A DNA stretch of 64,000 bases from Chiloscyllium plagiosum. Its lineage: Eukaryota. Below, piece by piece: positions 4,266-59,533 of the stretch. How positions within the stretch are numbered: the first letter of the stretch is position 1; each line of letters begins with the position of its first letter. The position numbers and the translations under genes were made by a program. The stretch lies in assembly GCF_004010195.1 (NCBI RefSeq), contig NC_057749.1, forward strand, positions 12,454,591-12,518,590. The letters are read 5' to 3'. The notes under the pieces were generated by a model. It had not been told where the DNA came from, made no database searches, and was given only the letters and a program-made list of their open reading frames with translations.

Positions 4266-5842
4266 GCAGGTAGAAGGTTCATGAAAAACAATAATGGGCT
4301 CTTCAACTATGAAAAACAGTCTTTATCCCCACTGAGATCCATGATCCAAACAGGAATTACCAGGATTTAGCTCTCTGTTGGCCCCTGAGCATAGGTTAGT
4401 TATGGATTGTTGAGATTCCTGATGAATGGGACTCAGTCCTGGAAATCAGTTATTCTGTGATGGGATGGAAGCTGAAATAATGGGAAAAATCATATTATGG
4501 CCACATCTGTGGAGAGAAACAATTAACGTTTTGGCCTTCTATCAGAATTGGAGAAAGTTAAAAATGTAGTGTAATATTACATTTTTAATTTTCCCAGTTC
4601 CAGTGAAGGTTTGGGTTTACTAGTCCAGTGACATTACCACTTTGTCACAGCCCCCTTCACAATGAGGACATTGCAGTCATCAGACCATGAGGGAAGCAGA
4701 ATGGTTTAAGAGTTCCAGATATTATACAGTAGAACTATCTTCTAAGAGTCAGAGTTACTTGGAGGTGTTGTTACTGGGAAGGAGTATGTGACTGACACAA
4801 ACATCCATGAATTTTCTGAGCTTACAGCTTGGTTATAAGTCTTAACGAGTTTGTCTGAAATTTGATGAGGTATTGGATTAGTTGAAGCAAAGTGAAACAA
4901 GCAGGGAGTGCTTAGAGCCACTAACAAGACCCAGCGCAGCACAGGTGTTCGATGTGTTGATTATTTCTCAGCAAAATATTCGAGGGCCCAAATGACAGAT
5001 TTGCAGTGAGAACAGTGGGCTTTATTTCACATTAATAAGTAAGTGTCAGGCTGCATCTCATATTTCCATATGGTGAATTTTTAGACAGTAGAAGCATAGC
5101 CTCAATGTGCATCTGATTCGCATTTCTGAGATGTAAATAGTGCTTACCATTGAGCTTTGCTACAGCCTCCAGTCATACCTGCAAATCTCCATCCTTAATT
5201 ATTTCACTCTCTTCCCAGCCATGTTTTCCATTTCATTCCTCCTTCCTCCTTGTCCTGAAGGCTCTCACCTTTGCAGCAATATAACTTCCTGGGTTCAAGT
5301 AGCTTTCTTCTCCCTCAGCCAAATGACTGCATTCATGTGGACATGACGAGAGTAACTGTGGCACTTTAATCTTGAGGAGCTAGGCACTGGGGCAGCAAAG
5401 CTGATTTCACCATGTTGTGGCATCCAAGCCTTTGCTTTCTTCATGAACTCTTTGAATGGCTACAAGGAATTAGAATCTTGGTCAATCTCCCATCCTCTTT
5501 GTACTGAAATGAATGCCAGCTGCAGCTGAGATCTGTTAATTGTGTCGAGACTTGGCACTTGTGTGATGATCCTGTGACTTTGCTATTCTGAGTCACTTGG
5601 TAGCACACTGAACAGTGCATTTGTTCACCAGTCAATGTGACAATTTCAGCTGATTCCTTCATTCAGAGAGAAGTGTCACATTGGCTTGTTTCCTAGCTCA
5701 TTGAGGATTCTGTTGTAATACTCATATCACGATCTGTTATTTCTTCGCAAGATTGGGCAATTTTCATTAAAACATAAGGTGCTTATTTTGCAGAAACATT
5801 GTAACTTTTTTCATTTAATGTTGCTTCTCCATTTCTCTACAG

Positions 5843-6160
5843 AATCTATGATCCGAACATTCACCCCTTTCTACTTCACGGTGGAGCCAGCAGACACAGT
5901 AGCAATACGAGGGGCCTCCGTAATACTGAACTGTTCAGTGTTTGCTGAACCCAGGGCCAAAATTGAATGGAGAAAGGATGGGACATTCCTAAACCTGGTT
6001 TCAGATGAACGCAGGCAGATGCTTCCAGAAGGTTCACTGTTAATACGGAGCGTAGTACATTCCAAACACCACAAACCTGATGAAGGATTTTATCAGTGCG
6101 TCGCTACTATCGATAGCCTGGGGACAATTGTGAGTCGGACAGCAAAGGTAACAGTGGCAG
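5843..6160 (+). CDS. neo1: Neogenin exon encoding Ig domain 1 (equivalent to human exon 2)
   Basis: Translation (E)[18 protein letters not shown]...[34 protein letters not shown] matches neogenin Ig1. Pyrimidine-rich acceptor ttctctacAG at 5841-5842 and donor GTATGT at 6161; 318 bp, phase 1-1. Confidence 0.96.
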
Positions 6161-9100
6161 GTATGTACTATTGTGGAGCGTTACCCTCCAAGGTCACTCC
6201 ATTTACTCTATAATTTGTGCTATTGCTGAGATACTTGGAACCTCTACATTCCAGTCACCTTTTCCAATTTCAAGTCTTTGCCATGAACACGCACAGAGCT
6301 TCAACTTCTAGATCCCATTCCTGTACTCAATATAATCACTGTCCTACTCCTTTTGTTTCAAGCAAATTAAATGCCCCCTCTCATCCATCCTCATTACCAG
6401 TATTGTATGCAACAGTTGGTTAAACTCTGGCAGTCATTTTGGTCATCCTTGCATCTAGCTCCTGCCAACCTGTGGCTAGTATTTTTTGACTCTTATCACA
6501 GAATCTGGGTGGCAGAGGTAGGAATAGAGTATGAAAATGAAATCTCTTCCTCTGGGTGTCTCAGTGGCTTTTGGTAGGTTTCTATGTTTACATAGGATGC
6601 TTGTCTCTGCCCTGCCATACGCCACTGTGCAGTGCACGAGAAGCTGGTCCAATGATGTTAATACCCATCAAAGCAGTTACTCGCTGGCTGTCGCTAGAGC
6701 TTAGCAAATTACCAAAATCTAGGGAATAATTCAAGTCGAGTTTTCTTGGGCTTTTGGAGAGTGTATGCACTTAATATTTGGTCCTCTTTAGAGACAAAAC
6801 AAGTGCATTTTCTGGTTAGTTTTACCATTAGAACTTTAAAGGCATCAGACAGATTGTTCCTGATATCCTGGGACCATCGTCTGGTCTATAGCAATCAGGC
6901 CTGTTATAGACTTCTTAAAAAAGCAGAGCAGTCTCAAGGACCTCATTTGCCAGTTTCTTGACCCCACTGTTTTCCAATCGCTGACTGCGTTGGCCCTCTA
7001 CGAGTGTCAGTTCTGACAGTGGGGTATGTAACATTTTCTCAGTTATAGGTACATGAACCAAGTCCTGTGTAGATAATTTCTTGTTGGATTAAGAAGAGGA
7101 ACCTCAGTCGAACCCTATCCTAGTTCTAACCTAGGGGCACTCACATGCGTTGTAGTAATTCAGCTGCTGTTTCGTTCAGTGCGGAGAATGGGGTGAATGT
7201 GGTGCTTATGGTCTGTGTAGGTTATTTTCATGCTGGGTGGTGAATTTACTGTTTGAAACATGAGAGAGTTGTAGTATCTGGACATTATAGTCAGGCAAGG
7301 AAGACTATGCAGTGAGCAGTGTCATTCCTGATTGAATAATTCAAGTTGAGTGAGGTTTTTGTACATTCATTAAGATGGCTCAATCCATCCTGAACCCAGG
7401 GAATATTTATGTTCTGCTCAGACGTGTAAAACCTTTTTCCCTTTTTATTCTGGAATTTCCTTTGACCTGGATTGGGTTTTGTAAATTGGACAGCATTTGA
7501 ATTGAATAAATAAATATAGTGTAAAATTTGCGAGTGCTGAGTTTTCTCAGTAATTTAATTTAAATTGTGTTTCAGAACTCAGTTTCACACCATGTCTAGC
7601 TTGTTACTAATTAGCAAATTGAGTTCAGACTTTGCTCTTGCCTTACATTGGGGCACTTTGATGGAACTCAGAACTGTGCATATTATTAGTCTGTAGTAAA
7701 TTATACAGTGTCGCAGGCATGTCATTGTAGAAATGATTGAATTGAATATAATAATTATCATATGTTCATCAATCTAATGTTTTCAGAATAGTACCAATTC
7801 TTGGATAATGTGTTGAAGCCAGTACTGTCAGTTCTGCACATTCTATCCAACAGCTTATCATCTCACTTCAGTATTTTGTCCCTTTCCTCATTTGCTAAGG
7901 CTGTTGACTTTTGTTGTTGCCAGGGACCTGTTGCTTTCCATTACATTGTCTTGTCTCGCTTGACCAGCAAGTTACCAAAATTTCCACCCTGGGTGAAGTA
8001 TTCACTCTGGCATGACTGTGAACAGGCTCTAACTTTGAAACTCTGTAGTTCACATGCCATAGTCTACACTGGAAATGCTTTATTGCAGCCCTTGAGGCTT
8101 TCCACGCTATGATGGAAAGCAGTAGATTAAGGGTTTTTTATTGAAATAAGCTGTGAATTTTTTTAAATCCGTTTCAGTCAGTGTTTGAAACGCCTACTTT
8201 TGATGCATCTTTAATTCAAATGTTACGGAATTTCAACATTTTGTTGAAGCTTTTGATTTTGCACTCATCTCACCTTGGTTTTGCAGTGAATATACGTGTT
8301 CTTTCTGTTTGCAAAGACCAGGACTTGGTTTATTAATATGTATCATCCAGTACACACAGTGTGCTATACTGGGAGTTCAACTGACCATCATAAATTGGTT
8401 GTCAGCATCATTCTTCATGCTCAGGATAATCCAGCAAATCCAGACGCATAAATCATATCCAATGTTACAGACTGTGTTATGAGTTTTGCAAATGCTGGCT
8501 AATGGGATATGGTCAGTACCTTTTTTTTTTAACAGGATGTTGTGAACAGCTGAAGGGATGTGCTGTTTGACATGATTTGCCAGTTTTTAGGATCTACATC
8601 TACGTACCTGATGTTACACCACAGCATTAAAATTCATATCCTTTCTTATTCATTTATTTAACACACCAAATTTTCTTTGCCTTTTGAGTAATTCTGACAA
8701 TTCATAATTGATTTTGAATATTGATTTCCCATGTCAGCTGAGGCTCTGTTGCTTGCAAACTTGCCTCTAGGTTAGAATGTAGATGTTTTCAGACGTTGGG
8801 CCATATTGTCCTGGCTCACATTCCAGTATGATGGAGTCTTGTTGACTCTTGTAGAAACTTTCAGCTCAAAACATTATCAGTTTCATTTCTTCAAAGATAC
8901 TGCCAGACTTGAGCTGTCCTGCATTTTCTGTTTTTATTTGAGATTTCCAACATCTGCTCTATTTTGCTTTTATTTGAATATATAATAGAATGCTGCCTAT
9001 GAGTATTTCATGGTTAGAACTACAAGAATTGTACCAGAAATATTTCCATAATTAAACATATACATTTACATAGAATTTTACCATTTCAGTAAATATGTCT

Positions 9101-15210: not shown

Positions 15211-16084
15211 ATTCATTGAATGATACACAACAAGTGGGAGAGTGTGCAAAAGGTTTGTGTCTGCGGTGGGGACCAGTAAAGTCCATGTGGCAACAACATG
15301 CATTATACATGGTACCATCTGACCCCCATACCCGAGGCTATCGTTCCCTGATATCATACCTTTAATGGGCACAACTGTCATGCAATTTTCATCAGATGTA
15401 ACAATGACTGTATTTTGAATAATATCTATTCAATTGTTAAAAATACTACCATCGCAGTTACACATTCTGTAATCCCAAACCTGGGTGTTCTGCACTGCTC
15501 ATTGCTTTTAACCCTTGAGGCAGTTTCTTAACCGTTTCCAGATTCAACCTGAGTAACTGTTGCTTTGCATTGAACCATTTGTCTTTTGTCCAATTCTGGT
15601 CAGAGTTGGAGTTGTAAAGGATTATAAACGGGCCCAGTTTAGGGAAGCAGAATAAAGGGTACGTTAAGGGTTGTGTCATTAGTGGACAAAAGGAAAGCAA
15701 TGCTGTGTTGATGCTGGAAATTTGAAATAAAAACAGAAAAGCTGGAAATTTGAAATAAAAACAGAAAATCTGAAAATAATCAGAAAATTGAGCAGCATTG
15801 ATGGAGAGTCAAAGAATAAAAATTTCAGACCAATGACCTTTCATCAGAGTCAAAAGATGTTCAAGATGAAATGTTTAATAATGAGGGAGTAGAAGAAAAC
15901 AAGAGAGAGAGAGAGAGAGAGCGCAGTCATGTGGGGGCTGGTAGTATTGATTAAAGGACTAATGTTATAGTGATGCAAATAGAGTCAGGCAAATTATTTT
16001 GATATTTATAATCAAAATTCCTTTTGGCCCTGCCTCCAGCTTATCATCTTCCCAACCCGATTCCTCCTTTTTGACACAACTCTA

Positions 16085-17355: not shown

Positions 17356-17450
17356 ATCTAGATCCTGAAGAAGGGCTTATGCTCGAAACGTCGATTCTCC
17401 TGTTCCCTGGATGCTGCCTGACCTGCGCTGTTCCAGCAACACATTTTCAG
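17356..17450 (+). mobile_element. Short hammerhead-bearing Penelope-like non-autonomous insertion
   Basis: cCTGAAGAagggcttatgctcGAAACGTCga core; 14-bp TSD atctagaaatgaac at 17342-17355 and 17451-17464. Confidence 0.8.
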
Positions 17451-20775: not shown

Positions 20776-22455
20776 TTTTTTTATTTCAAAAATAGGCTTT
20801 ATTCATAAAATATTTTGATCTGTACAATTGGTGATGCCATTCATAGGCATACCTTGCATTTCTTTACATACAGAGATCGGAATTAATCATTCATATACAG
20901 GTCTGTATGTTTACCATCCATATATTTAGCTGAGGCGTCAGCAGAGCCCACTTACTGAGTGGGCCCCCTGTTCTTCTTTGGCAGGCAGACGTTACATGGT
21001 GGTCTTTCCCCAGTGTGCCTTGGCGGCAGCTGCCCAAGCTTCAGTGCGTCCCTCAACACGTAGTCCAGGAGCATGGAATGTGCCAGTCCGCAACACTCAG
21101 TCGGGGTCAGCTGCTTCAGCTGGAAGATCAACAGGTTTTGGACAGACCCGCGGAACAGACCGTAGAGCACGGAGTCCCGCGTCACGGCGCTGCTCGGGAC
21201 AAACCTCGACAAACACCACTGCATTCGTCTCCAGACTTCCTTTGTGTAGGCACATTCCAGAAAAAGGTGTGTGACAGTCTCGTCCCCTCCGCAGCCACTT
21301 CGATGGCAGCGAGCAGTGCGGCAGAGAGTCCGGGCGTACATAAAGGATCTCACAGGCAGAGTCCTTCTCACCACCAGCCAAGCCATGTCTTGATGCTTGT
21401 TGGAAAGTTCTGGCGATGAGGCATTCTGCCAAATAACTTCTGCACAGGGAACCACTTGACAGATTCCGCCCTCCTTTTCCCGAAGGGTCTCAAGGACACT
21501 ACGTGCTGACCACTTCCTGATGGACTTGGTGGCAAAGGTGTTTTTCTTCATAAATTTCTCCACGAAAGACAGATGATACGGAACAGTCCAACTACTCGGA
21601 GCGTTCCGCGGCAGTGAGGCCCATCCTTCGCAACACCGGGGACAGGTAGAACCTCAGTACGTAGTGACACTTGGTGTTTGCGTACCGGGGATCCACGCAC
21701 AGCTTGATGCAGCCACACACAAAGGTGGCCATCAGGGTGAGGGAGGCATTGGGTGTGTTTTTACCCAGATTTTTGTACATCGAGTCCCTTTGGACCCGGT
21801 CCATCTTTGATCTCCATATAAAATGAAAGATGGCTTGGGTGACTACGACGGCACAGGTTCTGGGAATAGGCCAGACCTGTGCCACATATAACAGTGCCTC
21901 ACACCTGATGACCAGGTTTTTCCCCGCGATGGAGAGCGACCGTAGTTTCCAACTGCCCAGTTTCTGCCTCACGTTCTTGATACGCTCCTCCCAAGACTTG
22001 GCAAATCCCCCAGCCCCTCTGAACGAAATACCCAGCACCTTCAAGTGGTCGGTCCTGATGGTGAAGGGGATGAAGGAATGGTTGACCCAGTTCCCGAAGA
22101 GCATGGCCTCGCTTTTGCCTTGATTTGCCTTGGCCCTCGAGGCCCGTTCGAATTGGTCACAGATGCACATGAGTCTGTGCACCGACAGCGGATCCAAGCA
22201 GAAAACGGCAACGTCATCCATGTACAGGGAGGCCTTAACTTGTAGGCCCCCGCTGCCAGGAATAGTCACCCCTCTCAGGTTCGCATCCTTCCTGATGGAC
22301 TCGGCAAATGGCTCTATGCAGCACACAAACAAGACAGGAGCGAGAGGGCAGCCCTGCCTGACTCCAGATCTGACTGGGAAGCTATCTGATTCCCACCCAT
22401 TGATTGAGACTGCACTGACAATGTTGGTGTAGAGCAATCTGATCCAATTGCAGAT
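20776..22455 (-). mobile_element. Tx1-like (L1 superfamily) non-LTR retrotransposon copy A, 5'-truncated
   Basis: RT motifs GVRQGCPLAP and YMDDV, C-terminal C..C...ET..HLFLEC, AATAAA plus A-tail; TSD agataggac at 20767-20775 and 22452-22460. Confidence 0.92.
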
Positions 22456-22461
22456 AGGACC

Positions 22462-23580
22462 TATTTTTTATTTCAAAAATATACTTTATTCATAAAATTA
22501 TTTGGATCTGTATACAATTGGTCATGCCATTCTTGTGCACACATTACATTGCTTTATATACAGACATCGAAATTTATTTTTCCTATATACAAGTCTGTAC
22601 ATTTACTATCCAGCTCTTCTGCTGAGGCGTCAGCGGAGCCCAGATGACTGGGTGGGCCCCCTGTTCTTCTTTGGCAGGCAGACGTTACTTGTGGTCTTTC
22701 CCCACCGCGCCTTGGCGGCAGCTGCCCCAGGCTTCAGCGCGTCCCTCAACATGTAGTCCTGGACCTTGGAATGTGCCAGTCTACAGCACTCAGTTGGGGT
22801 CAACTCCTTCAGCTGGAAGATCAACAGGTTTCGGACCACCCAGAGAGCGTCTTTCACCGAGTTGATGATCCGCCAGGCACAGTTGATGTTCGTCTCTGTG
22901 TGCGTCCTGGAGAACAGACCGTAGAGCATGGAGTCCCGCATCACGGCGCTGCTCGGGACGAATCTCGACAAATACCATTGCATTCCTCTCCAGAACTCTG
23001 CATAGGCACATTCCAGAAGGAGGTGTGTGACAGTCTCGTCCCCACCGCAGCCGCTTCGAGGGCAGTGTGCGGTGCAGCAGAGAGTCCGGGTGTACATAAA
23101 GGTTCTCACAGGCAGGGCCTTCCTCACCACCAGGAGAAAGTGAGGTCTGCAGATGCTGGCCTGTGCCCGAAACGTCGAATCTCCTGTTCCCTGGATGCTG
23201 CCTGACCTGCTGTGCTGTTCCAGCAATAAAGTTTCAACTTCCTCACCACCAGCCAAGCCATGTCTTGGTGCTTGTTGGAAAGTTCTGGCGATGAGGCATT
23301 CTTCCAAACGACTTTGACAGTCTGCTCAGGGAACCGCTCGATAGGATCTGCCCTCTATTTTTCCCGAAGGGTCTCAAGGACACTACATGCTGACCACTTC
23401 CTGATGGACTTGTGGTCAAAGGTGTTTTTCTTCATAAAGTTCTCCACAAAGGACAGGTGATACAGAACGGTCCAACTACTCGGGGCGTTCCGCGGCAGCG
23501 AGACCAGGCCCATCCTTCGCAACACCGGGGACAGGTACCTTAACTTGTAGGCCCCCGCAGCCAGGAATAGTCACCCCTCT
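22462..23580 (-). mobile_element. Tx1-like copy B, 5'-truncated and internally deleted
   Basis: 3' UTR and ORF2 C-terminus homologous to copy A. At 23537/23538 the sequence jumps to a segment matching 22233-22275. Confidence 0.9.
23134..23237 (+). mobile_element. Short Penelope-like insertion nested in Tx1 copy B
   Basis: 15-bp TSD cttcctcaccaccag at 23119-23133 and 23238-23252. Inverted terminal piece plus gcccGAAACGTCgaatc (3' half of the hammerhead core). Confidence 0.85.
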
Positions 23581-26500
23581 AAGGTGACAATCTGCCAAAA
23601 CTGCAAGCAGGAAGGCCACCCGACCAAGGAATGTAAGGAGACCAAGAACTGTAATCTGTGCGGAGAGGCGGGCCACATGTACAAGGGGTGCCCAAGACGA
23701 GGGACCGCCACCTATGCACAGATGGCCAGAGGTGGCAACACGAGCCGTGGACCTAAGACCAGCAAGGTACCACAAGACAGCACGGGATCGGTGTCTGGAG
23801 GGACCCAGAAGGAAGGGCAGGCTGTAGCGGAGCAGACGGCAGACAGCGGGGAGATGCAGCAGCCGATCCAAGCTCCTCCAAGACAGACGGAGGAAATGGA
23901 AGAGGAGGGAACAAAGGAGGCAGAGGATTGGATTACTGTCAAAAGCAGGAAGAGGAAACCTCCCAAAGCCACCCAGCGAAGGGGGAAGCAACACCTATAC
24001 GACGAGGATACAGGCAGCTCTTCCGACGGTGAGGACGGGCGCAAGGAGGGTCGTCACCAGAGGAAGAGACAGAGCGCTGTGGGGAAAAAGGAGGACAGCA
24101 CCGCCCAAGCAGGAAAAGACTACCCCTCTGAGGGGATGGGTAAAGGCCTCCCCCCACCCGGTGAGAACCAAGAGGTACCCACCGGCCCAGAGTTGCCAGC
24201 ATCAATGTGCGTAGCATCAAATCGGCTACGCGATGTGTTTCTACGATGGCCTTCCTGGCCAACGTTAAAGCCAACGTCCTGTTTCTGCAGGAGTGTGGGA
24301 TACCGCACCTCAGCAGCTACAGGAGATGGTCGAGCTTGTGGGCCCATGGGCCGTCAGTTTGGTCGGGGGGGCAACGATAGCCGCGCCTCCAGACTGGGTA
24401 TCCTGTTGCGAGGAGGCAACTTCACCATCTCCGAGGTTAAGGAAGTGGTGGGCGGGCACCTCCTTGTCGCCGACATCATGTACAGGAATGCTCCCCTGAG
24501 ACTGATTAATGTGTACGCCCCAGTGGGTAAGAGGGAATGGTTGGCCGTCCTGTTGCAGCTCCCACTGTTGCTGGCTACGTCCAGGCTGGTCATTCTGGCC
24601 GGTGACTTCAATAGTATCATTGATGCAGATGGACGATCCGGCGGAGGAGACAGTAAACTGGACCCTCGTCCAGAGCCCTAATGGACACGGTAAAAGATGC
24701 CAAGCTGCACGACGTCTTCAGCAGCCCTGCAGACGGAGCGCAGTGTAGATACACCTGGTCACGGGCAGACGGGTCTTTCCGCTCAAGGATAGATTACGCT
24801 CTCAGTCAGATCCACCGACGTCAAGCCGGTGTTCTTCTCTGACCACTGCCTCCGGCTGGCTGGCTGTCACCTACAGGACGAGCAGCGGGCTGGTAAGGGA
24901 ACGTGGAAGCTGAACACAAAGCTGTTGACCCTGGGAAACATCGAGGAGCTCAAGAGGGACTACGCAGGTTGGAGAACCGTGAAGCCCCTCTTTGAGTCCC
25001 CAGCGGACTGGTGGGAAACAGTAAAAGGGAACATCAAGAGGTTCTTCATCCTCAAAGGTGTTCAGGAGGCGAGAGAGAGGCGGGGAGAAATGTCCCAGCT
25101 CCAGGAAAGTATGCAGAACCTGCTCCTGCTGTAGACGATGGGGGTGGATGTCACAGAGGACCTCAAGGACGTGAAGGGCCAGCAAGCCTCGCTCTTTGCT
25201 TCGGAGGCCTCCAAGATAATCTTCCGGTCCAGGGTCCGCCCGGTGGAGCAGGACGAGACGTGCTCACGTTTCTCCTTCCAGAAGGTGCACAAAGAGAGCT
25301 ATGTGCTCAGCAGCCTGAAGGAAGAAGATGGCTCAGTAACATCATCTCAGGCTGACATCATGAGGATCAGCAAATCCTTCTATGCCAGTCTGTATGACGC
25401 GAAGCCGACCGACAGCACGGCCTCCCAGTCNNNNNNNNNNNNNNNNNNNNNNNNNNNNNNNNNNNNNNNNNNNNNNNNNNNNNNNNNNNNNNNNNNNNNN
25501 NNNNNNNNNNNNNNNNNNNNNNNNNNNNNNNNNNNNNNNNNNNNNNNNNNNNNNNNNNNNNNNNNNNNNNNNNNNNNNNNNNNNNNNNNNNNNNNNNNNN
25601 NNNNNNNNNNNNNNNNNNNNNNNNNNNNNNNNNNNNNNNNNNNNNNNNNNNNNNNNNNNNNNNNNNNNNNNNNNNNNNNNNNNNNNNNNNNNNNNNNNNN
25701 NNNNNNNNNNNNNNNNNNNNNNNNNNNNNNNNNNNNNNNNNNNNNNNNNNNNNNNNNNNNNNNNNNNNNNNNNNNNNNNNNNNNNNNNNNNNNNNNNNNN
25801 NNNNNNNNNNNNNNNNNNNNNNNNNNNNNNNNNNNNNNNNNNNNNNNNNNNNNNNNNNNNNNNNNNNNNNNNNNNNNNNNNNNNNNNNNNNNNNNNNNNN
25901 NNNNNNNNNNNNNNNNNNNNNNNNNNNNNNNNNNNNNNNNNNNNNNNNNTGCAGGACAGAGGGTTGGACACCTGCCTGATCAGCCTGGATCAGGAGAAAG
26001 CCTTTGACAGGATAACACACAGGTATATGAGAGATGTTCTCTCCAAAATGGGCTTTGGGGAGGGAATCTGCAATTGGATCAGACTGCTCTACACCAACAT
26101 TGTCAGTGCAGTCTCAATCAATGAGTGGGAATCAGATAGCTTCCCAGTCAGATCTAGAGTCAGGCAGGGCTGCCTTCTCTCTCCTGCCTTGTTTGTATGC
26201 TGCATAGAGCCATTTGCCGAGTCCATCAGGAAGGATGCGAGCCTGAGAGGGGTGACTATTCCTGGCAGCGGGAGCCTGCAAGTTAAGGCCTCCCTGTACA
26301 TGGATGACGTCGCTGTTTTCTGCTCGGATCCGCTGTCCGTGCACAGACTCATGTGACCATATGTGACCAATTCGAACGGACCTCGGGGGCCAAGGTAAAC
26401 CGAGGCAAGAGCGAGGCCATGCTCTTTGGGAACTGGGCCGACCAATCCTCGATCCTCTTCAACGTCAGGACCGACCACCTGAAGGTGCTGGGTATATGGT

Positions 26501-33110: not shown

Positions 33111-35011
33111 CCTTGGAATTATACATTGAAACTGCTTCTGATGAAGTTGCATTGTAGTGTGAGATACTTTGCTTTAAATTCTGAAATTAAAGGAGGTACT
33201 GTGGAACAAATTGGGGAAAATGTAGTGAGCAGCAGGATAACTGACAGCTGTTGGACCTGCTGTTGTTGTATTCTCACTCTGAAAAGGGCATAAGGGTTTA
33301 CTGTCTGTCCTTCGGCTAGATACAGTGTGAAGCTTTATGGTGCCTCCAGAGAACTGATAGGACAATTAACACTTTGGTGAAAGGGTGCAGATTCTGTGCT
33401 GTTTGCAGATATCTGGTTATTTTTTAACTTCATCTTCTATGAGTGGATGTGTTTCCATGGCGTTTGCATGAAGCTTGGAAAGTTCCTATTGTCAAACTAA
33501 GGCCTGAATGATGACATTATCTGATATCACAGTCTGTCTAAGCTGCTTGGTGAAGAATGACCATGGATATAGAGTGGATACTGTCAGTTGCCATGGAACT
33601 GGAGCAAGAGTTCAGTTGATTTGTCAAGGGAGTAGAGAGAGAGAGACACAGCAGTCAATGATGGTTTTATCTTGGGACTCGTGAGTTAGGCTAGTGGCAG
33701 GGCTATGGTCATGGTTCCTTGAAAATATGATTAATAACACTTTTTCCAGTTCTGCTTTGGCTGAGTGACATTTTACAGCAATAGAAGTGTTTGCTGTGCA
33801 GTCAGCTTTCGATCAGGATTGGACTGTGCTTAGAATTCTGTGGCACAGAACTGTATGTCATTGGATATTGCATCCAAATACTGAAATATCAGGGAACTAT
33901 CCAATGCTATTGGAGTTCAGGGGTGTTGTGGATCTTCAATCTGTTCTTGTCTCGAGTTGCAGCTTACTTGGGAATGCACTGACATGGGGTGATTGAAGAG
34001 AAAGACTCTGAATGTTCAGCAATACCATCAGCACCAAGATGTACAGCAAACTTTAGACAGTTATGTCAGGCTTAGAATAACAGGCAACATATTCGAGCAT
34101 GTGGAGAGGAAAAGGAGGATATAGGGTTAGTGAGATGGAGATGGGCTAGATGCTGTGTTGATGAGTTTTTCAAGCGATCTGGTCAATGGCATCAATTCTA
34201 AAAAAAGAAGGGATAGTCCCCGAGGAGAGAAACTGTTTACTATGACAGCTAACATGAGGACTGTAAGGGACTTCTGTTGGTTAGCAGGAGCCAAATTGAA
34301 AATCATCAAATTAATACAACATTGAAGAAGGCCATTTAACTCAATGCGTCAATGCTGGCCCTCTGAAGGAACAATTCACCCAGACCCTCTCTTTTACCTT
34401 CTTCTTGCTCTAAATATTTTTCAAACAATAACCTCATTCCACTTTGAAAGCCATGGATTGATGCTGCACCTCCAACTCTCTTGGGCTGTACATTCCAGAT
34501 CCTAACCACTTGCTGTGTAAATAGGATTTCCTCATGGGGAGGGTATAATAGGTAGAAAACCACAGAGAGATAGGGAGGGAGCAGCTTGGTAATGAGATGT
34601 CCTTCACATCCTCACCTTTATTGGAGGTGAGAGTGGAGGGAGCAGGGGAGATGGTAAAATAGAGAGTCCTGGAGCCCACCACGCTGTTGGATACATTTTG
34701 AAGTGTTTCTGCCATGATGGCTGTCAGTGATTAAGATCTCCACTATCTGAGCTGCTGTTCATATTGGGTTTGGTTGTCGAGTGAGATCCTGTCTGACGCA
34801 CTGATTTTCCGTATGGATTGGGGTGGGCCATGGAGGTGACTGAACTGGGTGAACGTTAGATTGTCCTAAACAGCAGGAGAGTCATTGGCACAGCAATATT
34901 ACACGTAAATGACTCTTGTTGCTGGTTGTCTCACAAGCATAAAGTCTAATCTTGTGCTGCTCAGCTAAGCCCTTGAGTGAGTGAGTAAAGACTGACTTAT
35001 CAATAGGATGG

Positions 35012-35258
35012 CAAAAGTGAGGACTGCAAATGCTGGAGATCAGAGTCTAGATTAGAGTGGTGCTGGAAAAGCACAGCAGGTCAGGCAGCATCTGAGGAGC
35101 AGGAAAATAGACGTTCTGGGCAAAAGCCCTTCATCAGCAATGAAGAGCTTTTGGGAAGGGAATTCTTGATGAAGGGTTTTTGCCCGAAACATCGATTTTC
35201 CTGCTCCTCGGATGCTGCCTGACCTGCTGTGCTTCTCCAGCACCACTCTAATCGAGAC
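35012..35258. mobile_element. 247-bp fold-back Penelope-like element with two opposed hammerhead cores
   Basis: ~105-bp inverted arms; perfect 17-bp TSD acttatcaataggatgg at 34995-35011 and 35259-35275. Confidence 0.9.
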
Positions 35259-35299
35259 ACTTATCAATAGGATGGATCTGTTAAAAATTGTGTATGCCT

Positions 35300-35660
35300 A
35301 AGTGTGGGAGTGAGAATATCTGTGTGTTTGTGTATGTATAACAAATGAAAGTATTTGTGTCTGTGTAGTTTGGGAATGAGAGTGTTGGTGTCTGTGTTTG
35401 TTTGGAATGAGGGAGTGTATGTCTGTGTTGTGGGAATGACAGAGCGTGTGTGTCTGTGTCCGTATGGGAATGACGGGGCGTGTGTGTCTGTGTCCGTATG
35501 GGAATGATGGGGCGTGTGTGTCTGTGCCCATGTCCGTGTGGGAGTGACAGGGCGTGTGTGTCTGTGAAGGTGTGGGAGTGACAGGGCGTGTGTGTCTGTG
35601 AAGGTGTGGGAGTGACGGGGTGTGTGTCTGTGTCCGTGTGGGAGCGACAGGGCGTGTGTG
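35300..35660. repeat. ~32-bp GT-rich minisatellite
   Basis: Unit gtgtgtgtctgtgtccgtatgggaatgacggggc and variants. Confidence 0.85.
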
Positions 35661-40320: not shown

Positions 40321-40515
40321 ATTCAGCAGGTCTGGCAACATTTGTAAAGAGAGAAACAGAGTGAACATTTTGAGTATAGTATGACTTTTTTAGAGTCTGA
40401 AGAAGAGTCAAACTTAACTCAACACATTAACTCTGTTTCTCTCTTCACAAATGCTGCCAGACCCTCCAGCATTCTCTTTGTTTCAGATTTCCAGCATCCA
40501 CAGTATTTTGCCTTT
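40321..40515. mobile_element. Older fold-back Penelope-like short element
   Basis: Inverted arms cagcaggtctggca..gagagaaacagag / ctctgtttctctc..tgctgccagac around a degenerate CTGAAGA core. Confidence 0.7.
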
Positions 40516-44398: not shown

Positions 44399-44585
44399 TC
44401 AAATTGCTGGAAAAATTCAGCAGGTCTGGCAGCATCAGTGCAGAGAAATCCAGTGACCCTTTGTCAGAACCACTCGACCTGAAGTGTTAACTTCTTTTTT
44501 TCTCTCCACAGATGCTGCCAGATCTGAGCTTTTCCAGCAATTTCTATTTTTGACTGATTTACAGTATCAGTTCTTGCAGCTTTTA
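44399..44585. mobile_element. Older fold-back Penelope-like short element
   Basis: aaattgctggaaaaattcagcaggtctggcagcatc ... gatgctgccaga..tttccagcaattt inverted arms. Confidence 0.7.
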
Positions 44586-50295: not shown

Positions 50296-50354
50296 AGGAT
50301 ATCCTTCTATATGGAGTGTGTTCCAAATCCCACTATTAAATGTAACTAAATAAT

Positions 50355-50563
50355 CCAAAGAACTGCTGATGTTGGAGATCCAAAACAAAAACAGAAATTA
50401 CTGGCAAAATTTAGCAGGACTGGCAGCCACTGTGAAGATTTAGCAGAATTAAAGTTTCAAGTCCAGTTCTGATGAAGAATCATTGAACTTGAAATGTTCA
50501 TTCTGCTTTTTCCCCTCAGATGCTGCCAGACCTGCTGAGTTTCACTAGCAGTTTCTGTTTTTG
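50355..50563. mobile_element. Older fold-back Penelope-like short element with hammerhead core
   Basis: Inverted arms caaaaacagaaattactgg.. / ..cagtttctgtttttg; CTGATGAagaatcattgaacttGAAAtgtt at 50469. Confidence 0.75.
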
Positions 50564-51570: not shown

Positions 51571-51656
51571 TGTCTGTGTGGTTAGGATGATTGGTAACAA
51601 TTTGTTTGTTGGTATTATATCCAGGGTAAAGTGATTCATGGCCTTGCCTGTTTCAG

Positions 51657-51932
51657 GTCTTCCCCGATTCAGTGGTCAACCCCAAGCTGTCTTTGTGCAT
51701 CAAGGCGACACCACCCTGTTAGGATGCGAGGTGAATAGTGATCTTGTTCCTTTTGTGAGGTGGGAACACAACCGTCAGCCTGTAGTGTTGGAAGGAAGGT
51801 TCCTCAAACTGCCCAGTGGCTCCTTGGAGATCGGCAATGTCTCTGACAGTGATGCTGGATCGTACCGCTGCTCTGTGGAAACCGCCGGTCTCTCTAAAAT
51901 GAGCGAAGAGACAGAGCTCACCATTTCACCAG
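51657..51932 (+). CDS. neo1: Neogenin exon encoding Ig domain 2 (exon 3 equivalent)
   Basis: GLPRFSGQPQ...CEVNSDLVPFVRWEHNRQP...YRC is neogenin Ig2 (DLVPFVRWE is neogenin-like rather than DCC-like). Acceptor tttcAG, donor GTAAC; 276 bp, phase 1-1, in frame with the previous exon. Confidence 0.96.
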
Positions 51933-52039
51933 GTAACTGTCTATCCAGCAACTAGGGTAGAGTGATGTAAAAAAACTGGGGCGATGGCCAGGCTGCTGTT
52001 TTTCACCTGTGGACACGGGGGCAATTTTTAAAAAAAAAA

Positions 52040-52539: not shown

Positions 52540-55500
52540 TTGCATTTTGCAAAGGCAAATCCGGGCAGGACTTAGACATTTAGTGGTAAGGTCCTGGGGA
52601 GTGTTGCTGACCAAAGAGATCTTGGAGTGCAGGTTCATGGAACATAGAATGGTACAGCATAGTACAGGCTCTTCGGCCCTTGATATTGTCCTCGCCTTTT
52701 ATCCTACTCAAGATTAGACTAACCTATATACCCTTCATTGTACTATTCCATGTGCCTATCCAAGAGTCGCTTAAATGTCCCTAATGTATCTGACTCTACT
52801 ACCACTGCTGGCAGTGCATTCCACACACCCAGCACACTCTGTAAAAAAGCTACCTCTGACATCTCTCCTATACATCCTTCCAATTACCTTAATATTATGC
52901 CCCCTCATGATAGACATTACCACTGTGGGCAAACGTCTCTGGCTATCCACTCTATCTAAACCTCTCAACATCTTGTACACCTCTATGAAGTCACCTCTCA
53001 TCCACCTTCACTCCAATGAAAAAGCCCTTGCTCCCTCAACCTTTCTTCATAAGACATGCGCTCCAGTCCAGGCAACATCTTGGTAAATCTCCTCTGCACC
53101 CTCTCTTAAAGTTTCCACATCCTTCCAATAATGAGGTGACCTGACCTGAACACAATATTTCAAGTATGATCCAACCAGGGCTGTGTAGAGTTGCAGCATA
53201 ACCTCGCGGCTGTTAAACTCAATCCCCCTGCTAATGAAAATCAACATACCATACTTAGCCTATCAACTTGTGTAGCAACTTTGAGAGATCTATGGATGTG
53301 GACCCCAAGATCCCACTGTTTTTCCACACTGCCAAGAATCCTGCCTTTAACCCTGTATTCTGCATTCAAATTCGGCCTTCCAAAATTAATCACTTTACAC
53401 TTTTCCAGGTTGAACTCCATCTGCCACTTCTCAGCCCAGTTCTGCATCCTCTTAATGTCTCATTGCAACCTACAATAACCCTTCACACTATCAAAACTCC
53501 TCCAACCTTCATGTCATTGGCAAACTTACTAACCGACCCTTCAATTTCTTCATCCACGGCATTTATAAAAATCACAAAGAGCAGAGGTCCCAGAACCGAT
53601 CCTTGCGGAACATCACTGGTCACCAAGCACCAGGCTGAATACTTTCCATCTACTACCACCCTCTGTCTCCTATGGACCAGCCAATTCTGTATCCAGATAG
53701 CCAGACTTTTGTGTATCCCATGCCTCCTTACTTTCTGAACGAGCCTACCATAGGGAACCTTTTCAAATGCCTTGCTAAACTCCATGTACACCACATCCAC
53801 TGCTGTATCTTCATCAATGTGTTTTGTCACATCCTCAAAGAATTCAATAAGGCTTATGAGGCATGACCTGCCCCTCTCAAAGCCATGCTGGCTATCTCTA
53901 ATCAAACTATGGTCTTCCAAGTAATCATAAATCCTGTCTCTCAGATTCCTGTCTAATACTTTGCCTACCACTGACATAAGACTGACTGGTTTGTAATCCC
54001 CAGGATTATTCCTATTCCCTTTCTTGAAGAAGGGAATAACATTTGCCACCCTTCAATCAGCTGATACTACTCCAGTAGACAGTGAGGACACAAAGATCAT
54101 CGCCACAGGTGCAGCAATCTCTTCCCTTGCTTCCTGTAGTAACCTTGGGTATATCCCATCTAGCTCAGGGGATTTACCAATCCTTATGTTTTTCAAAATT
54201 TTCAGCAAATCCTCCTCCTTAACATCAACCAGTTCTAGCATATCAGTCTGTTTCACGCTGTACTCACAAACGTCAAGGTCCCTCTCAGTGGTGAATACTG
54301 AAGCAAAGTATTCATTAAGGATCTCCCCTACTTCTTCTGACTCCAGGTGCAAGTTCACTCCACTATCCGTGATAGGCCCTACCCTCACTCTGGCCAAACT
54401 CTTGTTCCTCACATAAGTGTAGAATGCCTTAGGGTTTTCCTTAATCCTACCTGCTAAAACTTTCTCATGCCCCCTTCTAGCTCTCTGCAGTTCCTTCCTG
54501 GCCAACATGTAACCCACTAGAACCCTGTCTGATCACTGGCCTCCTCAATCTTAAATAAGCATCCTTCTTCCTCTTGACTAGATGTTCCACATCCCTTGTT
54601 ACCCAAGGTTCTTTGAACCTACCATCTTTTCCTTGCCTCAGTGGGACAAACCTGTCCAGCACTATCAATAAGTGCTTACTAAACAACCTCCACATTTCTG
54701 TGCATTTTCTTGAGAACACTTGTTCCCAATTTATGTTCCACAGTTCCTGCCAAATCGCATGGTAATTCCCCCTTCCCCCAACTGAATACTTTCCCATCTG
54801 CTCTATACCTCTCCATGAATATAGTAAAGGTCAGGGACTTGTGATCACTATCAGTGTAATGCTGTTCCACTGAGAGATCCTACACTTGGCATGCTTCGTT
54901 GCCAAGCACCAAATTCAATATGGCCTCCCCTATCGTCAGCCTATCTACATATTGAGTCAGGAACCTGTTCTGGACACACCTGACTAAATCTCGTCCATCC
55001 AAACTATTTGAACTAAGGAGGTTCCAATCAATATGAGAGAAGTTAAAATCACCCATGACAACAATCCTGTTACTTCTGCACCTTTCCTAAATCTGCATCC
55101 AAATCTTCTCCTCTATGTCTCTGTTGCTACTGGAGGGCCTGTAGAAAGCTCCCAGTAAAGTGACTGCTCCTTTCCTGTTTCTGACATCTACCCATACTGA
55201 CTCTGTAGACAAACTCTCCTCAACAACCTCCCTTTCTGCAGCTGTGATACTCTCCCCAATTAGCAATGCCACTCTCCCACCTCTTTTACCACCCCCCTCA
55301 CATTCCTTTTGAAACATCTAAACCCTGGAACATCCAACAACCACTCCTGCCTCTGTGATATCCAAATGTCCATAATGACCATGACATCATAGTTCCAAGT
55401 ACTGATCCATCCTCTGAGTTCATCATCTTTATTCCTGATACTTCTTGCATTAAAATAGATACACTTCAACCATCACACTGACTGTACCTTTGCCCTATCA

Positions 55501-56685: not shown

Positions 56686-56809
56686 TCATTCTGTCTAATG
56701 GTTTTCAGTGTACAAGTTAGCGCCTGTAAAGTCTGTTATCATTGAAAACAAGAGCTCTGTGTAATTATGATAACTGGTTCACTGACAGTCTCACTTTGTT
56801 CTTTTTCAG

Positions 56810-56960
56810 AGATAGGTGTAGAGCGAAAGATGAAGTTTCTCCAACAACCTGTTCCCATTAGTAAGATAGCAGGCCAGACAGTAATATTACCTTGTGTGGT
56901 CTCTGGCTACCCAACCCCCACCATTCACTGGAGCCGGAATTCAGAGACCATCTTTGAAAG
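56810..56960 (+). CDS. neo1: Neogenin exon, N-terminal half of Ig domain 3 (exon 4 equivalent)
   Basis: EIGVERKMKFLQQP...GQTVILPCVVSGYPTPTIHWSRNSETIFE. Acceptor ctttttcAG, donor GTGCGT; phase 1-2. Confidence 0.93.
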
Positions 56961-58109
56961 GTGCGTTATTGTTTCCATTCGCAGAGTGAACTTGTTAGTT
57001 CAGACTGAGAGAACATCTTTGATTATTCATTTAGCACCCTTAATTTATACAACTCCATGTGACTCACTTGCCTGTAGGATTTTGCCATTTTCTTGGGTCT
57101 GTGGCAAGTTGGCATATAAATATGGTTTTGAGGCAGGATGGGATGAAAACCCTTTCATAAAATGCCATCTGTGTGGACATTGCAGCCCAGTCACTCTTTC
57201 TTTGCTCTAGAAATCCTGCTACACAGACATCAATCATAAATTACTAGGTATGAATTGCAGAATAATGAGCTCATTCAATTTAACTGAATTTGAGAGCTAA
57301 AGAAAATATGGAAAATGCACAACTTAGAAGTAATCATCTGTGGCTTTGCAGAATGGAGTGAAAATCAAATCGAGAAGCAGAGTTACGAGGCAGCGAAAAT
57401 GTAAACCACATCACAGATAGAATCAGCCTCCACTTAAAAGCTAGGCAATCGCACAATTTTGACTCAATATTGTGATCCATGGTTAATATACAAAACTTGC
57501 GATGTGATGGATTAATGGCTGTGGTGCCAGGTTGGTAAATCAGAGTGTAGAGTTCAACTCCAACCATGGCACACTGTGGAATTTAATTCATTAATCAATG
57601 AAGGTTAATCGTTTATGAGCTGGTATCAAAAAAATGACCACAAAACCTGCTGGATTATGATAAAATCCAATTTCCCAAAGCCCTTCAGAGAAGGGAAGCT
57701 GCCTCATCTGTTTTGCTTGGAATTTCAGTTTCAACCTAAATGGCCACTGGTATCAATAATAAATATCCCTTTGCCAGTATTACCTGCATCCTGAAGAGCA
57801 GATTTCAAAAATATTTTGGAATAGATTTGGTTGGAATGCTGGCTTTAACTGCATTGCAGAATACGCAGCGAGTTTTAAAAGTACATCACCACCACTGGAA
57901 GGAGGGTGTAATTACAGCAAGAAAGGCTGATAGAGGCAGCCTGCGTTCCCCATAAGTATACAAGGACTTATAATTGAGAACAGTTGACAAAAATATTGAG
58001 AGATCTGGACATGTATTTGATGAAACCATTAAATAATTGCTCATAAGACAAGAACATAACAAGGAACAGGACAGGGGCAGACCATTTGGCCCTTTAAGCC
58101 ATTTTTAAA

Positions 58110-59409: not shown

Positions 59410-59533
59410 AGAAGGGCTTATGCCCGAAACGTCGATTCTCCTGCTCCTTGGACGCTGCCTGACCTGCTGCGGTTTTCCAGCAACACATTTTTCAGCTCTG
59501 ATCTCCAGCATCTGCAGTCCTCACTTTCTCCTC
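59410..59533 (+). mobile_element. Short hammerhead-bearing Penelope-like insertion (single arm)
   Basis: TGAAGAagggcttatgcccGAAACGTCgattctcc...ctcactttctcc; 12-bp TSD gt(a/g)atttaatga with one mismatch. Confidence 0.82.

What the first reader, a model, noticed from the sequence alone, without database searches (positions are those of the whole stretch)
35012..35258. Fold-back 247-bp retro-insertion carrying two opposed minimal hammerhead ribozymes
Seen: ~105-bp inverted arms and a perfect 17-bp TSD. The + arm has (t)TGATGA-AGGGT TTTT GCCC-GAAACATC with a stem-I-like ggaattc/gattttcc pairing. The - arm has CTGATGA-AGGGC TTTT GCCC-agAACGTC. Known: CUGANGA...GAAA with a palindromic ACGU replacing helix III is the minimal, dimer-dependent hammerhead described in Penelope-like element (PLE) terminal repeats, and PLE insertions often carry an inverted 5' repeat. 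Inference: this is a protein-free, PLE-mobilised, ribozyme-bearing mini-retroelement (SINE/retrozyme-like) of sharks. It looks like a MITE, but the long TSD points to retrotransposition. Both cores in this copy carry point changes.
Basis: partly seen in the sequence, partly recalled or inferred. Interest (0 to 1): 0.85.

Follow-up and report, generated by a model that had tools for sequence, protein, structure and literature searches.

The report
Truncated inverted Penelope-like retroelement insertion
This 247-bp fold-back is a real but old and decayed double insertion of the ribozyme-bearing end of a Penelope-like jumping gene, and its layout has already been described for that class of element.

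Summary
There is a 17/17-bp target-site duplication (34995-35011 / 35259-35275) around two 104-nt inverted arms that are 88% complementary.

Each arm is the same about 100-130-nt module. It holds a minimal type-I hammerhead: CUGAUGA, one extra A, a 4-bp helix II, GAAA, and ACGU in place of helix III. This is followed by 65 nt (+ arm) or 98 nt (- arm) up to the element end. Both cores in this copy are damaged.

The window holds at least 8 more loci of the family. Their duplications vary from 11 to 17 bp. They end at two discrete 3' termini about 33-41 nt apart. Four more are head-to-head fold-backs with different junctions.

These are the published hallmarks of Penelope-like element (PLE) insertions: extreme 5' truncation, an adjacent inverted 5'-truncated copy, a 30-40-bp "tail" at one end only, and a min-hammerhead (PMC4209133, PMC8557442, PMC11167929).

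Contigs of a second organism label carry both junctions. The family is massively repeated in runs under three organism labels.

I could not test a link to an RT/GIY-YIG element, or a dedicated SINE-like status. Verdict: ordinary, a new member of a known kind. A MITE is rejected.

The parts
34995..35011 (.). Left copy of the 17-bp target-site duplication
   Evidence: family D4: 17/17 identical to 35259-35275.
35012..35044 (-). 33-nt 'tail': the extra 3'-terminal extension. It is present only on the minus-strand arm (long-type 3' terminus).
   Evidence: The alignment of 3' ends shows that arm B runs 33 nt beyond the point where arm A ends. The same long-type end is seen at 59533, 23134 and 50345.
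35045..35109 (-). Body of the minus-strand arm, from the nucleotide after the hammerhead cleavage-equivalent site down to the short-type terminus position
   Evidence: nhmmer E = 6.7e-26.
35110..35137 (-). Minimal hammerhead motif of the minus-strand arm: CTGATGA-A-GGGC-TTTT-GCCC-AGAA-CGTC. The GAAA box is changed to AGAA.
   Evidence: It fails the strict descriptor. In one search table 3, 99% of family contig depth differs from this copy at 35116 (X5: 477,679 of 483,836). A loose-end consensus there reads GAAAC.
35138..35165 (.). Junction region. It holds 4 nt upstream of the minus-arm core, then about 24 nt upstream of the plus-arm core, including the helix-I 5' strand GGGAATTC.
   Evidence: One search gives 20 nt between the arms. 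The helix-I pairing was read by hand.
35166..35193 (+). Minimal hammerhead motif of the plus-strand arm: TTGATGA-A-GGGT-TTTT-GCCC-GAAA-CATC. C3 is changed or a T is inserted, and the ACGT palindrome is broken to ACAT.
   Evidence: It fails the strict descriptor. In one search, 46% of family depth reads G at 35191 (X5: 1,087,731 of 2,355,725).
35194..35258 (+). Body of the plus-strand arm, 65 nt from the cleavage-equivalent site to the short-type (tail-less) 3' terminus
   Evidence: The ends of arms A, D, E and H fall within 2 alignment columns of each other.
35259..35275 (.). Right copy of the 17-bp target-site duplication
   Evidence: family D4.

Best explanation
The element is a dead relic of one integration event made by the reverse transcriptase/endonuclease machinery of a Penelope-like element (PLE).

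Each arm is the 3'-terminal module of the PLE-type RNA. The module runs from the minimal hammerhead, which needs a partner copy to form helix III, to the internal site where reverse transcription starts.

A staggered double-strand cut left 17-nt overhangs. Both exposed 3' ends primed cDNA synthesis on family RNA. One started at the distal start site, giving the arm with the 33-nt tail. The other started at the proximal site, giving the tail-less arm. Both cDNAs stopped at or just beyond the hammerhead, and the two 5'-truncated copies were joined head to head. Fill-in produced the 17-bp duplication.

Shown: the anatomy, its recurrence in the family, the variable duplications, the two discrete termini and the age. 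Inferred: priming from both strands, use of two start sites, and that a PLE enzyme did the work.

The hammerheads acted, if at all, in the source transcripts, not in this copy.
For: 1. Anatomy.

2. The motif meets the published sequence-readable min-hammerhead features of PLEs (PMC4209133, whole main text read). It has an extra A between A9 and G10.1, a G10.1-C11.1 pair, and ACGU at 15.1-16.1 in the - arm. An intact version lies at 17365.
 - The strict descriptor found 3 hits in the window, against a mean of 0.14 and a maximum of 3 in 50 mononucleotide shuffles.
 - Helix II pairs in 32 of 36 cells across 10 copies of diverged subfamilies. 3 of its 4 pairs change on both sides. Slid controls pair in 55.6% of cells or fewer. 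10 of 500 shuffles reach the covariation score.

3. Duplications vary in length: 17, 15, 14, 12 (1 mismatch) and 11 (1 mismatch) bp in 5 copies.

4. There are two discrete 3' termini. 4 short-type ends lie within 2 alignment columns. 4 long-type ends lie 33-41 columns further on. [quoted passage not shown]

5. Head-to-head fold-backs recur at 5 loci in 64 kb. All 3 that have recognisable duplications carry one long-type and one short-type end. PMC8557442 describes an inverted 5'-truncated copy as typical. PMC4209133 reports paired min-hammerheads on opposite strands 100-700 bp apart. PMC11167929 shows the enzyme cutting and extending both strands in vitro.

6. Repetition: 57,187 contigs of run X5 (organism A), 91,292 of X13 (organism B), 8,879 of X18 and 9,041 of X16 (organism C) lie on the element at 90% likeness or more. 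The flanks have depth 7.3 and 15.3.

7. Age: organism B contigs reach 35017 from the left and start at 35224 on the right. Flank divergence is 22 differences plus 2 gaps in 418 nt.
Against: - No Rfam hammerhead model matches, even at E up to 10 or at gathering score over the whole window. This is expected for a motif without helix III, but it leaves the ribozyme assignment resting on a descriptor and on published features.
- Neither core in this copy is intact.
- No PLE reverse transcriptase or convincing GIY-YIG domain is in the window. The one GIY-YIG match (2324-2680, minus) has E = 0.0048, below Pfam's cut-off. The RT fragments sit beside AP-endonuclease domains, so they are LINEs. The link to a PLE enzyme therefore rests on architecture alone.
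- The arms differ by 12% while the duplication is perfect. If the arms began identical, the chance of that is about 0.11 (my arithmetic: 0.88^17). The arms may have come from two different templates.
- Snap-back synthesis could also give an inverted repeat.
Confidence: 0.8

Rival explanations
1. The module belongs to a dedicated, protein-free, SINE-like family of about 100-135 nt. It parasitises PLE enzymes in trans, and this fold-back is one of its insertions. This is the first reader's reading, minus the idea that the fold-back itself is the unit.
For: - All 5 copies of the finding's own subfamily in the window end at their 5' side between about 24 nt upstream of the hammerhead and the middle of helix II. 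None runs on into longer element sequence.
- Very many contigs in runs under three organism labels hold the module.
- The AUG inside CUGAUGA opens only a 17-codon frame that ends at the conserved GCCTGACC. The commoner subfamily reads CTGAAGA and has no AUG. So, unlike the Anolis element (PMC11167929), the module is non-coding here (read).
- PLE-derived non-autonomous elements are proposed in the literature (PMC7229834 passages; bioRxiv 10.64898/2026.07.22.740005, parts 1 and 3 and passages).
Against: - Extreme 5' truncation is normal for autonomous PLEs. [quoted passage not shown]
- Five copies are few.
- The plus arm carries about 24 nt of further upstream sequence, so the source RNA is longer than the common module.
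- The apparent common 5' break at 35137 in the joints can be explained by this copy's own divergent 4 nt there.
- Contig counts are not copy numbers.
Confidence: 0.25
2. It is a MITE or fold-back DNA transposon: the terminal inverted repeats are recognised by a transposase, and the duplication comes from cut-and-paste integration.
For: Long inverted arms flanked by a perfect direct repeat, and a hairpin fold with z = -20.4.
Against: - Duplication length varies from 11 to 17 bp among 5 copies.
- Single-arm copies at 59410-59533 and 17356-17450 have their own duplications.
- The two termini are unequal, with 33 nt extra on one side.
- Junctions and arm lengths differ between fold-backs.
Confidence: 0.03
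3. It is a LINE-mobilised SINE or a LINE 3' fragment. The inversion arose by twin priming, and the hammerhead-like motif is coincidental.
For: LINE fragments with AP endonuclease plus RT are common in the window. Twin priming gives inverted 5' segments (recalled from the L1 literature, from no call).
Against: - There is no tRNA, 5S or 7SL match in or near the element.
- There is no poly-A or microsatellite tail.
- Two discrete 3' termini with a 33-41-nt tail are described as unique to PLEs (PMC11167929 abstract and section 3).
- The CUGANGA and GAAA boxes and the extra nucleotide persist across subfamilies whose helix II has covaried.
- Twin priming should not give two arms that cover the same part of the template.
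Confidence: 0.05

Closest known systems
Minimal hammerhead ribozymes (min-HHR) in the pseudo-LTRs of Penelope-like elements (Cervera & De la Pena 2014, PMC4209133; Lunse et al. 2016, seen only as a citation in PMC6765202)
   Same: The CUGANGA and GAAA boxes, an unpaired nucleotide between 9 and 10.1, a G10.1-C11.1 pair, no helix III but a palindromic ACGU that only a second copy can pair with, a type-I layout, many scattered single copies, and pairs on opposite strands 100-700 bp apart.
   Different: Helix II here has 4 bp (GGGC/GCCC), while the Schistosoma families have 7-8 bp. Both cores in this copy are damaged. Association with a PLE ORF is not shown here. My searches found no paper that holds 'hammerhead ribozyme', 'Penelope' and 'shark' together except a review that uses 'shark' only for the shape of the motif.
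PLE insertion architecture: 5'-truncated copy with an adjacent inverted 5'-truncated copy and a 30-40-bp tail at one end (Craig et al. 2021, PMC8557442; Frangieh et al. 2024, PMC11167929)
   Same: Inverted 5'-truncated partner, a 33-nt tail on one end only, two discrete 3' termini, and variable duplications. The hammerhead lies 65 and 98 nt upstream of the two termini. In the Anolis element the cut site is at +26 and the RT start at +111-118 of the ORF.
   Different: Both copies here are truncated to the terminal module alone, so there is no ORF. The module is non-coding here, whereas in the Anolis element the ORF starts inside the hammerhead.
Metazoan non-LTR retrozymes (Cervera & de la Pena 2020, PMC7229834; Li et al. 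2026, bioRxiv 10.64898/2026.07.22.740005)
   Same: Short, protein-free, hammerhead-bearing sequences thought to be moved by PLE enzymes.
   Different: Retrozymes are head-to-tail tandem units with canonical type-I hammerheads, and they give circular RNAs. This locus is head to head, has a minimal hammerhead, and no circular or unit-length RNA was seen or could be sought.

Membership tests
PLE minimal hammerhead (min-HHR) | Conserved core boxes CUGANGA and GAAA, with a C3-G8 pair | tested here: inconclusive
   Not met by either arm of this copy: TTGATGA with CATC in one, AGAA in the other. Met by family copy 17365 and by the loose-end consensus of 178 contigs of X13, agreement 0.54.
PLE minimal hammerhead (min-HHR) | [quoted passage not shown] | tested here: met
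   There is an extra A in both arms and in copies C, D, F, H and I. The pair at columns 22-40 is G-C in 6 of 9 copies with letters.
PLE minimal hammerhead (min-HHR) | No helix III; positions 15.2-16.2 palindromic so that two copies can pair | tested here: met
   ACGT in the minus arm and in copies C, D and E. It is broken to ACAT in the plus arm.
PLE minimal hammerhead (min-HHR) | Helix II kept by compensatory change | tested here: met
   32 of 36 cells paired. 3 of 4 pairs change on both sides. 10 of 500 shuffles reach the covariation score. Slid controls pair in 55.6% or fewer. The set is small, 10 partly decayed copies, and the structure was derived from these sequences.
PLE minimal hammerhead (min-HHR) | Self-cleavage after H17, as a dimer | not testable with these tools
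   Needs in vitro transcription of dimeric constructs of intact family members.
Penelope-like element insertion | Inverted 5'-truncated copy next to a 5'-truncated copy | tested here: met
   5 head-to-head loci in the window.
Penelope-like element insertion | A 30-40-bp tail at one end only; two adjacent RT start sites | tested here: met
   short-type ends within 2 columns of each other and long-type ends 33-41 columns further on. All 3 fold-backs with duplications have one of each.
Penelope-like element insertion | Made by, or part of, an element that encodes a telomerase-like RT plus a GIY-YIG endonuclease | not testable with these tools
   No genome is held. No PLE ORF is in the window. The metagenome and genome-contig scans gave only chance bacterial matches.
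Non-LTR retrozyme | Head-to-tail tandem units, each with a type-I hammerhead | tested here: not met
   The two units at this locus are head to head. No direct tandem of the module appears.
MITE / DNA transposon | Fixed-length duplication and equal terminal inverted repeats | tested here: not met
   Duplications of 11-17 bp, unequal ends, and single-arm copies with their own duplications.
Classical SINE | A tRNA-, 5S- or 7SL-derived head with a pol III promoter | tested here: not met
   No such Rfam match at E up to 10 in 34900-35400, or at gathering score in the window.

The most novel reading that the evidence does not exclude
The module is a discrete, non-coding, SINE-like parasite of PLEs that has been amplified hugely in several related species. 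On this reading, its fold-back insertions are the in vivo footprint of concerted priming on both DNA strands by a dimeric PLE enzyme that uses its two RT start sites. All 3 fold-backs with duplications in this window pair one tail-bearing end with one tail-less end. So far that mechanism has been seen only in vitro, for one lizard element.
Probability: 0.25. Interest if true: 0.45.

Novelty: new member of a known kind. Interest (0 to 1): 0.2.

Why it matters
As it stands, this is a correct recognition of a known thing: a PLE-type minimal hammerhead inside a typical PLE inverted, truncated insertion.

Its modest value is as material. The family is very abundant, and it carries clean duplications and two sharply defined 3' termini. 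A genome-wide census of one-arm and two-arm insertions could test in vivo the two-start-site, two-strand model of PLE integration, which so far rests on one in vitro system (PMC11167929). It could also test whether short hammerhead modules have become autonomous 'SINEs of PLEs'.

Tried and rejected
- Rfam: no hammerhead family matched at E up to 10 or at gathering score. The best matches (MIR831 at 70 bits against a cut-off of 100, MIR6024 and others) only reflect the long hairpin and are below threshold.
- Own genome: not held.
- Earlier findings of this scan: nothing by sequence, place or words that bears on this. The one note returned concerns another genome.
- Viral contigs: 0 matches to a 19-nt family word.
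- Metagenome contigs: 119 loci matched a 17-nt word. nhmmer with the family profile found only 4 marginal matches of about 30 nt (E 1e-4 to 4e-4) and no family member.
- Genome contigs: 6 matches, all bacterial records, taken as chance.
- PLE protein in the window: none. The GIY-YIG match is below cut-off. The RTs lie beside AP endonucleases.
- RNA: no RNA holder was listed for the locus. The runs guessed to be RNA (X18, X16) cover the repeat but not the unique flanks. They are contigs, so they show no ends, strand or level.
- No contig joint across the whole element (an empty site) was among the 15 joints listed. 491 more were not shown.
- I first read the many joints that start at 35137 as a fixed 5' end of the family at C3. 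I dropped this because this copy's own 4 nt there differ from the AATT seen upstream of the core in two other copies, which would break alignments at that point anyway.
- Lunse et al. (PMC5785218) is not held.
- The supplements of the 2026 preprint and of PMC4209133 were not seen. They may list cartilaginous-fish motifs.

Full report
**Observation**

ACTTATCAATAGGATGG occurs at 34995-35011 and again at 35259-35275, 17 of 17 identical. Between the two copies lie inverted arms, 35038-35141 and 35162-35265: 104 nt, 88% complementary, 20 nt apart. Folded as RNA, the 247 nt form one long hairpin of -168.8 kcal/mol. The 200 shuffles average -74.6 +/- 4.6, so z = -20.4. This is far beyond chance.

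**Anatomy of an arm**

Read in the sense that shows the hammerhead boxes, both arms are copies of one module:
- a short upstream strand (GGGAATTC in the plus arm);
- CUGAUGA;
- one extra A;
- a 4-bp helix II (GGGC/GCCC) with a UUUU loop;
- GAAA;
- CGUC, so that A15.1-C-G-U16.1 is the palindrome ACGU with no loop;
- then GAUUUUCC..., whose first 8 nt pair with the upstream strand in 7 of 8 positions (read by hand).

The plus arm runs 65 nt from the cleavage-equivalent site to its end at 35258. The minus arm runs 98 nt to its end at 35012. The difference is a 33-nt extension, 35012-35044.

Both cores are damaged. The plus arm has T at or beside C3 and CA instead of CG. The minus arm has AGAA instead of GAAA. 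Neither passes a strict descriptor.

**The family in the window**

- blastn and an nhmmer profile built from 7 seeds found 16 matches with E below 0.01. Seven of them are the seeds themselves.
- Single arms with their own duplications lie at 59410-59533 (12 bp, 1 mismatch, long-type end) and 17356-17450 (14 bp, short-type end).
- Head-to-head structures lie at:
 - 23134-23237, a 26-nt inverted tail joined to an arm, with a 15-bp duplication;
 - 50345-50563, with an 11-bp duplication (1 mismatch);
 - 44402-44570, no duplication found;
 - 40323-40500, no duplication found.
- Their arm lengths and junction points all differ. The fold-back is therefore made anew at each insertion and is not itself a copied unit.
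- Aligning the 3' parts shows two discrete termini. Four short-type ends fall within 2 columns of each other. Four long-type ends lie 33-41 columns further on.
- Each of the 3 fold-backs with a recognisable duplication has one end of each type.

**The ribozyme motif**

- No Rfam hammerhead model matches. The sub-threshold microRNA matches only reflect the hairpin.
- A strict min-hammerhead descriptor (core boxes, optional extra nucleotide, helix II of 3 bp or more, palindromic or absent helix III) hits 3 places in the window. The 50 mononucleotide shuffles gave a mean of 0.14 and a maximum of 3. One hit, at 17365, is an intact member of the finding's own subfamily.
- Across 10 copies from diverged subfamilies, helix II pairs in 32 of 36 cells. 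Three of its 4 pairs change on both sides. Slid controls pair in 55.6% of cells or fewer. 10 of 500 shuffles reach the covariation score. The set is small and partly decayed, so this is modest support.
- In public contigs most family depth differs from this copy at its odd positions. In run X5 the figures are 35116 at 99%, 35109 at 80% and 35191 at 46%. One loose-end consensus reads an intact helix II followed by GAAAC-GTC.

**Comparison with print**

- Cervera and De la Pena (PMC4209133; whole main text read) defined exactly this motif in PLE terminal repeats. They list as its unplanned regularities the nucleotide between 9 and 10.1, the G10.1-C11.1 pair and the palindromic 15.2-16.2. They note that most motifs are scattered singles, probably truncated PLEs, and that some lie in pairs on opposite strands 100-700 bp apart.
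- Craig et al. (PMC8557442; passages) describe strong 5' truncation, an inverted 5'-truncated copy at the 5' end, and a 30-40-bp tail often at one end only.
- Frangieh et al. (PMC11167929; abstract and section 3) show that an Anolis PLE protein cuts and extends both DNA strands. It starts reverse transcription at two adjacent internal sites, and the stretch between them is the tail. The hammerhead cut lies 26 nt after the start codon and the RT start lies at +111-118.
- Every structural feature I could test here fits this picture. The fold-back is best read as two convergent target-primed cDNAs, one from each start site, both stopped near the hammerhead. That mechanism is inferred, not shown.

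**Age and abundance**

- Contigs of a second organism label (run X13) reach 35017 from the left flank and begin at 35224 running into the right flank. Both junctions therefore exist there.
- The left flank differs by 22 letters and 2 gaps in 418 nt.
- The unique flanks have depth 7.3 (X5) and 15.3 (X13). The element itself collects 57,187 and 91,292 contigs at 90% likeness or more. It also collects about 9,000 contigs each in two runs guessed to be RNA, one of them under a third organism label.
- These figures show massive repetition. They are not a copy number and do not show expression.

**What stays open**

- No genome is held. The window has no PLE ORF. Scans of viral, metagenome and prokaryote contigs gave only chance matches. 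So I tested neither 'a PLE shares this repeat' nor 'this is a dedicated protein-free family'.
- The 5 copies of the finding's subfamily all end at their 5' side between about 24 nt upstream of the hammerhead and the middle of helix II, and the module is non-coding. Both points hint at a short dedicated RNA. Extreme truncation is normal for PLEs, however, and the plus arm shows that the source extends further upstream.
- The organism was never named by a tool, so 'shark' is unverified.

**Verdict**

The finding is a PLE-type insertion with minimal hammerheads, which is a known kind, in a family for which I found no description in print. Interest is low.

Noticed in passing
window 4419-4450 (+) and 4499-4545 (-): The strict min-hammerhead descriptor hits the plus strand at 4419 (6-bp helix II, GAAA, TC). 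This stretch seems to be the reverse complement of the tail of a decayed minus-strand family copy whose own degenerate core lies at about 4545. It is either chance or a tail hairpin that mimics the motif.
   Followed up: partly
window 15713-15768: There is an exact 28-nt tandem duplication inside the tail region of the minus-strand family copy at 15853-15756. It may be a footprint of re-initiation or slippage at the RT start region.
   Followed up: no
window 35288-35600: A GT-rich minisatellite with units of 31-40 nt lies immediately downstream of the right duplication (families D1-D3). PLEs are reported to favour microsatellites (PMC8557442 abstract). I did not examine any link.
   Followed up: no
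window 5719-6210, 51635-51952, 56746-57207 (+): Open frames with immunoglobulin I-set/Ig_3 domains (E 1e-7 to 1e-12) suggest exons of an Ig-superfamily gene on the plus strand. If so, the element may lie in one of its introns.
   Followed up: no
window 36-2100 (-), 20955-22467 (-), 53244-55086 (-): LINE fragments with AP endonuclease and/or RVT_1 and zf-RVT domains. The family copy at 23134-23237 sits inside another decayed zf-RVT frame (22633-23325).
   Followed up: no
window 35070-35233: Rfam MIR831 (70 bits against a cut-off of 100, E = 1.2e-14) and other microRNA precursor models match the hairpin below threshold. This is an artefact of the long inverted repeat, although such hairpins can yield small RNAs.
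   Followed up: partly
window 25431-25949: An assembly gap of 519 N.
   Followed up: no
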